DNA of 64,000 bases from NCBI RefSeq assembly GCF_030013205.1, contig NZ_CP122648.1; one strand, written 5' to 3'. Shown here one piece after another: positions 45,301 to 48,300 of the stretch (position 1 is the first letter of the stretch; each line of letters starts with the position of its first letter). Made by a program: the position numbers. This stretch comes from Escherichia coli. GTDB lineage: Bacteria > Pseudomonadota > Gammaproteobacteria > Enterobacterales > Enterobacteriaceae.

Positions 45301-48300
45301 CCAGATGTAAACAGGTCGGATGCCGCGTGGCATCCGACCTTTTGCCAGTTCGTCAATATTACCCATTTACAAAATCGTCTCTTCCGTCAAAATCCGGCGC
45401 GCGCCTAAAAAATGGTCCTGCCAGAAAGGTTCAGCTAACCGACTTACCCGTATGGTTTCCCCGGTGCGCGGCGACTCAATAAACTGTCCATCGCCCAGAT
45501 ACACGCCCATATGGTCGGCAATCTCGCGGCTGTGGATATGAAAAAACAGCAAATCTCCCCGGCGCAGGTCGTTATTCGCCACAATGGTTGCCCGGCGATA
45601 GTGATACATCTCATTAGCCGTGCGTGGGAGCTTCGCCTCGAGGATCTTGTTGTAGGCATAAAAAACCAACCCGCTACAGTCGAAGCCTTGATCGGGCCGC
45701 GTGCCGCCCCAGACGTAAGGCTTGCCAAGCTGCTGCTCCAGGCGGTGAATCGCCACTTCGGTGATGTTGTGTAGATGGTCGCTGCTTAAGAAATGGTTGT
45801 TCTCCGCCAGCGCCTGCCAGCGTCTGTCACTTGCCTTGAGCGGCGCAGGAAACCATTCTGGATGCTGTTTTATCTGTTCGCGGTTGTGCTGGCGCAGCGC
45901 CTTTCTGCTTTCGGCATTGCCTTCCACAATATAGCTGGCCTGTTTTTTCAGATGGGTTTGGTACTGTTTTAATAAACGCGCACGGTTTTGCATCCGCTGG
46001 CGGGCGGCGTAGCTGAAAGAGATATGTGATGTGGTGGCGCTGGCGAGTAAAGGGAGCAAAACGCATAACGAAAACACGCCTGGATGCAGAAATCTGCCGA
46101 GCAAGAACGAAGACATGAAGGACATAAACCGGCTGAATGAAGGTGAGAATTTTAAAAGACCAGAGGAGTAAACGGGATTATTAATTGCTTATTTGCATAT
46201 TACTATTGAGGTTTCATAATCTTAGGAAATAAATGATACATGCGCTTTTCGGACTATTGAAAACTGCCCCTGTGCTAAATTTGTAAACCCTGCGCCGACA
46301 GGCTTGCGTAAAACTCTTTTGGTGATAATGTGAGCCTTCCCAATCCAGACTATTCCGATTTGGGATCCATTTTGCCGTCCTGGCGTGTGTAACCGTTTTA
46401 TCAAGGAATAAGCAGTATGCGTAAAATCGCATTAATTCTTGCGATGTTGTTGATCCCGTGCGTTTCGTTTGCCGGTTTGCTGGGCAGCAGTAGCTCGACC
46501 ACGCCAGTGAGCAAAGAGTATAAGCAGCAGTTGATGGGATCCCCTGTCTACATCCAGATCTTCAAGGAAGAACGTACACTCGATCTCTACGTCAAAATGG
46601 GCGAGCAATATCAACTGCTCGACAGCTATAAAATCTGTAAATATTCCGGCGGCTTAGGGCCAAAACAGCGTCAGGGCGATTTCAAAAGCCCGGAAGGGTT
46701 TTATAGCGTCCAGCGTAATCAGTTAAAACCAGACAGCCGTTACTACAAAGCGATTAATATTGGATTCCCCAATGCCTATGACCGTGCGCATGGTTATGAA
46801 GGGAAATATCTGATGATCCACGGCGATTGTGTTTCCATCGGCTGCTACGCGATGACCAATCAGGGTATTGATGAGATCTTCCAGTTCGTTACTGGTGCGC
46901 TGGTTTTTGGTCAGCCGAGCGTGCAAGTGAGTATTTACCCGTTCCGCATGACCGACGCCAATATGAAGCGCCATAAATATTCCAACTTTAAGGACTTCTG
47001 GGAGCAACTGAAACCGGGCTACGACTACTTTGAGCAAACCCGTAAGCCACCGACCGTTTCTGTGGTCAATGGCCGTTACGTGGTCAGCAAGCCGTTAAGC
47101 CACGAAGTTGTGCAACCACAGCTGGCATCAAACTACACGCTCCCCGAGGCAAAATAAGCGCCATTCGCCTGGCATAATCTTTTGCCAGGTTTCATTGCCC
47201 GTCAGCGGCTGTGTCGCAATCACCGTGACCACATCATTCGGTGTGGTCTGCGAGCTGAAGTCGATTTCCACATCCTGATCCAGCAACGTTGCCACGCCAA
47301 ACGGCGCGCGGCGGGTGATCCAGTGTAAATTAGTCGAGCAATACGCCATTACATAGCGCCCGTCAGAAAGCAGCATGTTGAAAACGCCCTTCTGCCGCAG
47401 TTCATCCGCCAGTGAGGCGATATATTTAAACACTGCCGCCATGTTGCCCGGTGTGCGCGGGTAACGCTGCGTTAATTTATGCAGGAGCCAGCAGAAGGCT
47501 TTTTCGCTGTCGGTTTCACCGACCGGGCGGAAGTTGCCGGTTTCCAGTGATTTGTATCCCGTCAGTTGTCCGTTATGGGCATAAGTCCAGTTACGCCCCC
47601 ATAACTCGCGGGTAAACGGGTGAGTATTTTCCAGCGCCACCTCGCCCCGATTCGCCTGGCGAATATGAGCCACCACCGAACAGGATTTTATCGGGTAGTC
47701 CTGGACAAGTTTGGCGATGGGGGAATTAAAGCTGGGTTGCGGATCTTTAAATGTGCGACAGCCTTTACCTTCGTAAAAGGTAATGCCCCAGCCATCTTTA
47801 TGTGGCCCGGTTCCACCACCACGCTGTACAAGTCCGGTGAAACTAAAGCAGATATCGGTAGGGACGTTGGCGCTCATCCCGAGCAATTCGCACATAGGTA
47901 ACCTCCACAACAGCGGGAGCGCATGGCCCCCGGCGAAGATTGATTTAAGTATTTTCAGGTCGGATGCGGCGTAAACGCATTATTCGGCCTACGCCAGACT
48001 TACTTAACCATCTCTTTTTCAATTAACTGGATCAGGATATGGATCACTTTAATGTGGATCTCCTGAATGCGGTCGGCATAACCAAAGTGCGGTACGCGAA
48101 TTTCGATATCCGCTGTGCCAGCCATTTTACCGCCGTCTTTACCGGTCAGGGTGATCACTTTCATCCCCTTCTCACGCGCCGCCGCGATCGCTTTGATCAC
48201 GTTTGCAGAGTTACCGGAGGTGGAGATCCCCAGTAGTACATCGCCTTCGCGACCTACCGCTTCAACGTAACGGGAGAAAATATCGTTGAAACCAAAATCG

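What the first reader, a model, noticed from the sequence alone, without database searches (positions are those of the whole stretch)
46126..46416. No dinJ-yafQ toxin-antitoxin module between yafL and yafK
Only about 290 bp of non-coding sequence separate yafL and yafK, and no LexA box is visible. In K-12 the dinJ-yafQ operon sits at this position, so this strain has an empty site, whereas the neighbouring yafNOP module is present.
Basis: partly seen in the sequence, partly recalled or inferred. Interest (0 to 1): 0.4.

Follow-up and report, generated by a model that had tools for sequence, protein, structure and literature searches.

The report
Unoccupied dinJ-yafQ site, ancestral allele
This E. 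coli strain has no dinJ-yafQ toxin-antitoxin pair between yafL and yafK (dpaA), but this is the ordinary ancestral form of the locus, shared by 38% of complete E. coli genomes.

Summary
yafL (45367-46116, minus strand) and dpaA/yafK (46417-47157, plus strand) are separated by 300 bp (291 bp from the longest ORF). That spacer has no DinJ or YafQ coding capacity, no LexA box, no Rfam match and no unusual RNA structure. yafN, yafO, yafP and dinB are present nearby.

"Empty site" needs two refinements. First, it is the unoccupied ancestral state, not a deletion. The window-specific 224 bp (46053-46276) has orthologues in E. albertii and two other divergent Escherichia genomes. Thirteen of 14 species-representative genomes with yafL next to dpaA, including Citrobacter and Phytobacter, lack the module.

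Second, the two alleles differ by a replacement, not a clean insertion. K-12 carries 830 bp in place of the 224 bp. Those 830 bp include a divergent yafL promoter region and the first ~21 codons of yafL.

Among 5426 complete E. coli genomes, 3340 carry the K-12 segment and 2084 carry the window segment. Together they account for every genome that has the locus.

The window is 99.99% identical to porcine strain K_EC180 and matches O139:H1 edema-disease strains. That lineage is typed as phylogroup D, where published work already reports yafQ-dinJ as absent. This is a known, ordinary polymorphism of low interest.

The parts
45367..46116 (-). yafL, an NlpC/P60 (C40) peptidase of 249 aa. A further in-frame ATG lies at 46125. 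The first ~21-24 codons (signal peptide MSSFLLGRFLHPGVFSLCVLLPLLASA) are specific to the window allele.
   Evidence: The ORF appears. Pfam NLPC_P60 matches at E = 2.5e-33. PGAP annotates the start at 46116 in identical genomes. The N-terminus is compared with other genomes.
46117..46416 (.). The yafL-dpaA divergent intergenic region of 300 bp. This is the unoccupied dinJ-yafQ site.
   Evidence: Nothing is annotated here in identical genomes. There is no DinJ or YafQ hit, no LexA box and no Rfam match apart from one chance-level hit outside the spacer. Folding z-scores are +0.65 and +1.72, which is not structured.
46053..46276 (.). The allele-specific segment of 224 bp, with no counterpart in K-12. 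K-12 has 830 bp here instead (NC_000913 245946-246775): yafQ, dinJ, the dinJ promoter with its LexA box, and a divergent yafL promoter and 5' end.
   Evidence: The breakpoints come from blastn and MAFFT. The segment is found in 2084 of 5426 genomes. Its 46050-46263 core aligns end to end with E. albertii (76%), Escherichia sp. E1V33 (81%) and strain SCPM-O-B-8794 (79%).
46225..46276 (.). The central 52 bp of the spacer. It is orthologous in all empty Escherichia alleles and partly in Citrobacter. This is the piece physically displaced by the ~657-bp TA cassette in K-12-type strains.
   Evidence: Alignment; coordinates.
46277..46416 (+). The dpaA-proximal 140 bp, shared by both alleles and conserved across genera. 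It contains a candidate dpaA promoter: TTGCGT at 46304-46309, a 16-nt spacer, and TGaTAATGT ending at 46331. The promoter assignment is an inference only.
   Evidence: This part is 98% identical to K-12. The dpaA-side stretch of the alignment is 93-99% identical within empty-allele Escherichia and about 81-85% in most Citrobacter and in Phytobacter, with the hexamers retained. The site was not flagged by the consensus scan.
46417..47157 (+). dpaA (yafK), a YkuD-fold peptidoglycan meso-diaminopimelic acid protein amidase.
   Evidence: It is 100% identical in amino acids to K-12 DpaA. Pfam YkuD matches.
44683..45310 (+). A neighbouring hicA-hicB family toxin-antitoxin pair (44683-44961 and 44954-45310). 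It lies on the other side of yafL, where K-12 has rayT.
   Evidence: Pfam HicA_toxin and HicB both score above their curated cut-offs. PGAP names them as such. The pair occurs in 1479 of 5426 genomes.
39775..40931 (-). yafP (39775-40227), yafO (40237-40635) and yafN (40638-40931).
   Evidence: tblastn gives 98% identity over full length. Annotation.
42055..42070 (.). The dinB LexA box (CTGGTAAAGTATACAG). It is the only SOS-box-like site in this neighbourhood.
   Evidence: Pattern search in the window. Its orthologue is found in K-12 upstream of dinB.

Best explanation
The 300-bp spacer is the native divergent promoter region of yafL and dpaA, in a lineage that never received the dinJ-yafQ cassette.

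Shown here:
- The module and its LexA-box promoter are absent.
- The window-specific 224 bp is orthologous to the spacer of other Escherichia species.
- K-12-type strains carry 830 bp in its place.
- The locus is cleanly dimorphic in E. coli.

Inferred:
- yafL is transcribed leftward from its own ancestral promoter and exported with its ancestral signal peptide.
- dpaA is transcribed rightward from a promoter in the conserved 140 bp next to it, possibly with a second one near 46192-46220. There is no read-through from a LexA/DinJ-controlled promoter.
- This strain therefore has no YafQ ribosome-dependent mRNA interferase and one fewer LexA-bound promoter, with no other expected consequence.
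For: - Absence: with K-12 as a positive control.
- Ancestry: of 14 species-representative genomes with yafL adjacent to dpaA, 13 lack dinJ-yafQ. These include E. albertii, Escherichia sp. E1V33, eight Citrobacter and Phytobacter massiliensis. Only Escherichia sp. MOD1-EC7003 has the module.
- Orthology: the window-specific segment aligns end to end with the three empty Escherichia genomes at 76-81%.
- Population: 3340 genomes carry the K-12 segment and 2084 carry the window segment. The sum, 5424, equals the number of genomes with the locus.
- Lineage: the window is 99.994% identical to porcine strain K_EC180 and 100% identical over 25 kb to O139:H1 strains. O139:H1 ST1 is typed as phylogroup D (PMC11052496).
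- Literature: yafQ-dinJ is reported in all E/B1/A genomes and, within the F/G/B2 lineage, only in F, with D used as the reference (PMC6896753). YafQ is prevalent in A, B1 and F (PMC10790755).
Against: - The promoter assignments rest on conservation and weak consensus only. The candidate in the conserved 140 bp matches 3 of 6 positions in each hexamer plus a TG extension, and the consensus scan did not flag it.
- Only a 64-kb window was read, so a divergent dinJ-yafQ paralogue elsewhere in this genome is not directly excluded. The genome counts argue against a close copy.
- The yafL-proximal part of the K-12 allele resembles Citrobacter (62-64% to C. amalonaticus) more than the window allele does (46-50%). 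The history of the yafL 5' region, as distinct from the TA genes, is therefore unresolved.
Confidence: 0.9

Rival explanations
1. Secondary loss. An ancestor of this strain carried dinJ-yafQ, and the module was later removed, either by deletion or by homologous recombination that imported an empty allele from another E. coli.
For: The region is recombinogenic. yafL is only 89-95% identical per 100 bp between E. coli strains, while dpaA and yafJ are 96-100%. All four combinations of hicAB or rayT with dinJ-yafQ or empty occur. Allelic replacement is therefore mechanistically easy.
Against: A deletion is excluded. The 224 bp is not a subset of the K-12 sequence and is orthologous to the E. albertii spacer. 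Replacement by an imported empty allele cannot be excluded from one window. It is unnecessary, however, because phylogroup D is reported to lack the module.
Confidence: 0.07
2. The spacer is not really empty. It encodes something else, such as a small protein, a small RNA or a degenerate toxin-antitoxin remnant, that takes the place of dinJ-yafQ.
For: ORFs of 72 and 60 aa overlap the spacer on the minus strand. Parts of the spacer, such as ATATGCAAATAAGCAATTAATAAT on the yafL strand, are invariant across the empty Escherichia alleles.
Against: The two ORFs have no toxin or antitoxin Pfam match. Both also run across the conserved dpaA-proximal block, and the 72-aa one extends past the dpaA start codon. 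There is no Rfam match. Folding energy is no better than shuffled sequence on either strand. PGAP annotates nothing here in identical genomes. Conservation is what a divergent promoter region would show.
Confidence: 0.03

Closest known systems
The E. coli K-12 dinJ-yafQ locus (b0226-b0225), the occupied allele of the same site
   Same: The flanking genes, their order and their orientation are the same (yafL, dpaA, yafJ, gmhA, fadE). The 140 bp next to dpaA is 98% identical.
   Different: K-12 has 830 bp where the window has 224 bp. The K-12 block holds yafQ, dinJ, the dinJ promoter with the LexA box CTGTATATTTATTCAG at NC_000913 246519-246534, and a divergent yafL upstream region and signal peptide (MSLPSIPSFVLSGLLLICLPFSSFASA against MSSFLLGRFLHPGVFSLCVLLPLLASA).
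Published phylogroup-linked absence of yafQ-dinJ in E. coli (PMC6896753; PMC10790755; Fiedoruk et al. 2015, cited in PMC7167474 but not read)
   Same: It is the same polymorphism. The module is reported in E/B1/A and F and is missing elsewhere. The window matches a phylogroup D porcine lineage.
   Different: The passages retrieved from those papers report gene presence or absence only. The junction structure found here, a replacement that reaches into the yafL signal peptide, did not appear in those passages or in the other library searches.
The ccdO157 toxin-antitoxin insertion polymorphism between folA and apaH (Mine et al. 2009, cited in PMC7167474). Recalled from my own knowledge; the paper was not read here.
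   Same: It is a chromosomal type II TA module that is present in some E. coli lineages, with a short unoccupied intergenic spacer in others, at a fixed site between core genes.
   Different: It is a different module and a different site. No comparison of junctions was made here.

Membership tests
DinJ-YafQ type II toxin-antitoxin module | An ORF encoding a DinJ/RelB-type ribbon-helix-helix antitoxin | tested here: not met
   tblastn of K-12 DinJ against the whole window gave a best E of 4.1 and nothing in the spacer. The spacer ORFs have no Pfam match to any antitoxin family.
DinJ-YafQ type II toxin-antitoxin module | An ORF encoding a YafQ (RelE-fold) ribosome-dependent mRNA interferase | tested here: not met
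   tblastn of K-12 YafQ gave a best E of 0.29, at 34577-34693, outside the locus. blastn at word size 7 found no DNA remnant.
DinJ-YafQ type II toxin-antitoxin module | A LexA box in the operon promoter | tested here: not met
   CTGT-N8-ACAG with up to 1 mismatch is absent from 46117-46416. The same search finds the dinJ box in K-12.
Unoccupied (ancestral) integration site | The spacer sequence is orthologous to that of outgroup species that lack the element | tested here: met
   Window 46050-46263 aligns over its full length with E. albertii, Escherichia sp. E1V33 and strain SCPM-O-B-8794 at 76-81%. Part of it is also recognisable in Citrobacter.
Unoccupied (ancestral) integration site | Outgroups with the same flanking genes lack the element | tested here: met
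   Of 14 species representatives with yafL next to dpaA, 13 lack dinJ-yafQ.
Unoccupied (ancestral) integration site | The occupied and empty alleles differ by the element alone (a clean insertion) | tested here: not met
   About 170 bp on the yafL side (promoter and signal-peptide codons) also differs, at 36-51% identity. The difference is therefore a replacement of 224 bp by 830 bp.
HicAB type II toxin-antitoxin module (the neighbouring pair at 44683-45310) | Adjacent, overlapping ORFs with HicA_toxin and HicB domains | tested here: met
   PF07927 scores 30.4 bits (cut-off 27) and PF05534 scores 40.5 bits (cut-off 21). The ORFs overlap by 8 nt. Activity was not tested.
YafNO toxin-antitoxin module with yafP (dinB operon) | Full-length yafN, yafO and yafP downstream of dinB | tested here: met
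   tblastn gives 98% identity over the full length of each.

The most novel reading that the evidence does not exclude
The two alleles may be old haplotypes that differ in more than the TA genes. In K-12-type strains the incoming block also replaced the yafL promoter and signal peptide. It also displaced 52 bp of spacer and a promoter-like site (TTTGCA-17-CATAAT, 46192-46220) that points towards dpaA. If so, dpaA, the amidase that cleaves Lpp from peptidoglycan, would receive read-through from a LexA/DinJ-controlled promoter only in K-12-type strains. In strains like this one, yafL and dpaA would be expressed from their ancestral signals. The K-12 yafL upstream region is closer to Citrobacter amalonaticus than to other Escherichia. 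This would then mark import of the block from outside the genus by homologous recombination.
Probability: 0.15. Interest if true: 0.35.

Novelty: already known. Interest (0 to 1): 0.1.

Why it matters
It matters little. The result shows that K-12 is the derived state at this site. Absence of dinJ-yafQ should not be read as a loss or as a strain-specific feature, because it is the norm in 38% of complete E. coli genomes. It is also a reminder that chromosomal TA repertoires vary by lineage. This same window carries yafNO, a hicAB pair that K-12 lacks at this position, and an AbiE pair. The one detail that may be undescribed concerns the K-12 allele rather than this window: the occupied allele also swaps the yafL promoter and signal peptide. 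That is relevant mainly to people who delete dinJ-yafQ in K-12 and worry about effects on neighbouring genes.

Tried and rejected
- A hidden or degenerate TA in the spacer was rejected. tblastn, word-7 blastn and Pfam at E up to 10 on the spacer ORFs all came back empty.
- A structured RNA or known RNA family was rejected. Rfam at E up to 1 found only a chance miRNA-model hit inside dpaA. Folding z-scores were +0.65 and +1.72.
- A simple deletion of the K-12 module was rejected. The window has 224 bp that K-12 lacks.
- A search for a plasmid donor of the K-12 cassette led nowhere. Matches of 95% or more were F-prime plasmids or mislabelled chromosomal records. Other plasmid homologues were only 60-80% identical.
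- The consensus promoter and terminator scan gave two promoter-like sites, against about one expected by chance, so it is not informative on its own. One Pfam call failed because the frames contained stop codons.
- Ramisetty and Santhosh 2016 and Fiedoruk et al. 2015 could not be read, because neither is in the held library.
- E. fergusonii and the E. coli type strain did not appear among the 80 loci kept from the genome scan, so they were not examined.

Full report
**What is in the window.** The region is the E. coli fadE-pepD segment in the reverse of K-12 orientation. The genes, in window order, are:
- pepD (35371-36825, +)
- yafP, yafO, yafN and dinB (39775-42038, -)
- the lafU/lfhA scar of the lateral-flagella cluster (42109-44578)
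- a hicA/hicB pair (44683-45310, +)
- yafL (45367-46116, -)
- a spacer
- dpaA, also called yafK (46417-47157, +)
- yafJ, gmhA, fadE and ivy

The window from 17499 to 64000 is 99.994% identical to porcine strain K_EC180. Positions 30000-54999 are 100% identical to several porcine ETEC genomes and to O139:H1 edema-disease strains. O139:H1 ST1 isolates are typed as phylogroup D in PMC11052496.

**Checking the observation.** The start codon conserved in other Escherichia, and annotated by PGAP in identical genomes, is 46116, which gives 300 bp.

tblastn with K-12 DinJ and YafQ against the whole window found only noise. The best hit had E = 0.29 and lay far from the locus. The same run recovered DpaA and YafJ at 100%, YafL at 91%, and YafN, YafO and YafP at 98%.

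A LexA-box pattern (CTGT-N8-ACAG, up to 1 mismatch) has no match in the spacer but finds the dinB box at 42055-42070. As a positive control, the same pattern on the K-12 locus finds exactly the dinJ box and the dinB box. K-12 does carry yafQ and dinJ between dpaA and yafL.

**Anatomy of the difference.** Pairwise blastn and MAFFT against K-12 show homology on both sides. The yafL side is 93.3% identical up to window 46052, and the dpaA side is 98.3% identical from 46277. Between these points the window has 224 bp and K-12 has 830 bp (NC_000913 245946-246775), with no detectable similarity between them.

The right junction lies 15 nt beyond the yafQ stop codon. The left junction lies inside yafL, just upstream of the codons for the ASA signal-peptidase site. 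The two alleles therefore encode different YafL signal peptides: MSSFLLGRFLHPGVFSLCVLLPLLASA here and MSLPSIPSFVLSGLLLICLPFSSFASA in K-12.

A multi-species alignment (coordinates) divides the K-12 block in two:
- A TA cassette proper of about 657 bp, holding yafQ, dinJ and the promoter with its LexA box. It displaces 52 bp of ancestral spacer (window 46225-46276).
- About 175 bp of yafL upstream region and 5' end. This part is alignable with the window allele but only 36-51% identical to it.

**Which state is ancestral.** A scan of one genome per species with DpaA returned 80 loci. Fourteen of them have yafL next to dpaA, and only one, Escherichia sp. MOD1-EC7003, has dinJ-yafQ between them. 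The empty ones are E. albertii, Escherichia sp. E1V33, a divergent genome deposited as E. coli SCPM-O-B-8794, nine Citrobacter genomes and Phytobacter massiliensis.

The core of the window-specific segment (46050-46263) aligns end to end with the three empty Escherichia genomes at 76-81%. The K-12 block matches only MOD1-EC7003, at 97%. The window-type signal peptide is also the one shared with E. albertii and resembles that of Citrobacter. The empty arrangement is therefore ancestral, and dinJ-yafQ is the insertion.

One loose end remains. The K-12-type yafL upstream 110 bp is 62-64% identical to Citrobacter amalonaticus, with a 48-bp blastn hit at 81%. It is only 36% identical to the window type. 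This hints that the K-12 haplotype was imported with foreign flanking sequence.

**Population frequency.** Among 5426 complete E. coli genomes:
- 5424 have the locus.
- 3340 have the K-12 830-bp block.
- 2084 have the window 224-bp block.

The two counts add up to exactly 5424, so the locus is dimorphic and the alleles are essentially mutually exclusive. Close copies of dinJ-yafQ elsewhere in empty-allele genomes are therefore unlikely.

The empty allele is itself old and diverse. Relative to the window, 606 genomes are at 99% identity or more, 218 at 95-99%, 1231 at 90-95% and 29 at 80-90%. The 90-95% class includes strain MNCRE44, whose allele is 11 bp longer.

**Literature.** PMC6896753 states that yafQ-dinJ is present in all genomes of the E/B1/A lineage and, within the F/G/B2 lineage, only in phylogroup F. 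Phylogroup D was its reference. PMC10790755 finds YafQ highly prevalent in A, B1 and F. PMC5120126 summarises earlier work showing that K-12 TA modules are horizontally acquired cassettes, made of a promoter and the two ORFs without a terminator, integrated in intergenic regions. It lists yafL, 209 bp, dinJ-yafQ, 155 bp, yafK. Absence in a strain of a phylogroup D lineage is the expected state.

**What the spacer does.** Nothing beyond a divergent promoter region is indicated:
- There is no Rfam family.
- Folding is no better than shuffled sequence.
- There is no credible small ORF.
- Identical genomes carry no annotation here.

The 140 bp next to dpaA is conserved across genera. It retains TTGCGT, a 16-nt spacer and TGaTAATGT (46304-46331), which I take as the likely dpaA promoter. 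This is an inference from conservation, and the consensus scan did not flag it. A second promoter-like site, TTTGCA-17-CATAAT (46192-46220), lies in the allele-specific part and points towards dpaA. The yafL promoter must lie in 46117 to about 46224, where ATATGCAAATAAGCAATTAATAAT is invariant among the empty Escherichia alleles.

**Verdict.** The feature is an already known, common, ancestral allele, so interest is low. The only detail that may be undescribed concerns the K-12 allele: its block also replaces the yafL promoter and signal peptide.

Noticed in passing
window 44683-45310 (+): A hicA/hicB-family toxin-antitoxin pair lies between the lfhA remnant and yafL, where K-12 has rayT (yafM). 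Both Pfam domains score above their cut-offs. The segment is present in 1479 of 5426 complete E. coli genomes, and all four combinations with or without dinJ-yafQ occur.
   Followed up: partly
window 37135-39456 (-): Intact prfH, an RtcB-family RNA ligase and a metal-dependent hydrolase lie between pepD and yafP. K-12 and strain CFSAN018748 have only pseudogene remnants here (ykfJ/prfH).
   Followed up: no
window 45367-46052 (yafL body): yafL is unusually diverged within E. coli. It is 88-95% identical per 100 bp to K-12 and 89-95% in its 3' half to B2 strain MNCRE44, while the adjacent dpaA and yafJ are 96-100%. The pattern is mosaic, which suggests a recombination hotspot beside the variable sites.
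   Followed up: partly
L001 (K-12) 6604-6776 versus L020 (Citrobacter amalonaticus S646) 4682-4729: The K-12-type yafL upstream region resembles Citrobacter amalonaticus (62-64% identity, with a 48-bp hit at 81%) far more than it resembles the window-type Escherichia allele (36%). The origin of the K-12 haplotype is unexplained.
   Followed up: partly
window ~46237: The window allele lacks 11 bp that are present in the empty alleles of B2 strain MNCRE44, E. albertii and the other Escherichia genomes.
   Followed up: no
window ~19786-28992: According to the annotation of the near-identical genome K_EC180, this stretch holds an AbiEii/AbiEi pair, a type I restriction-modification system (hsdR, hsdM, hsdS) and an integrase remnant next to a tRNA-Thr gene. 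It looks like a small defence island at a tRNA gene.
   Followed up: no
window ~52743-64000: According to the same annotation, an ISAs1 transposase pseudogene and a truncated RHS protein are followed by a type VI secretion cluster (tssB to tssH). tagH has an internal stop and tssH is marked incomplete.
   Followed up: no
L006-L081: In Salmonella diarizonae and in many Citrobacter, Lelliottia and Phytobacter genomes, dinB lies directly upstream of dpaA with no yafL or lateral-flagella genes. yafL therefore belongs to the variable Flag-2 edge rather than to the conserved core of the family.
   Followed up: no
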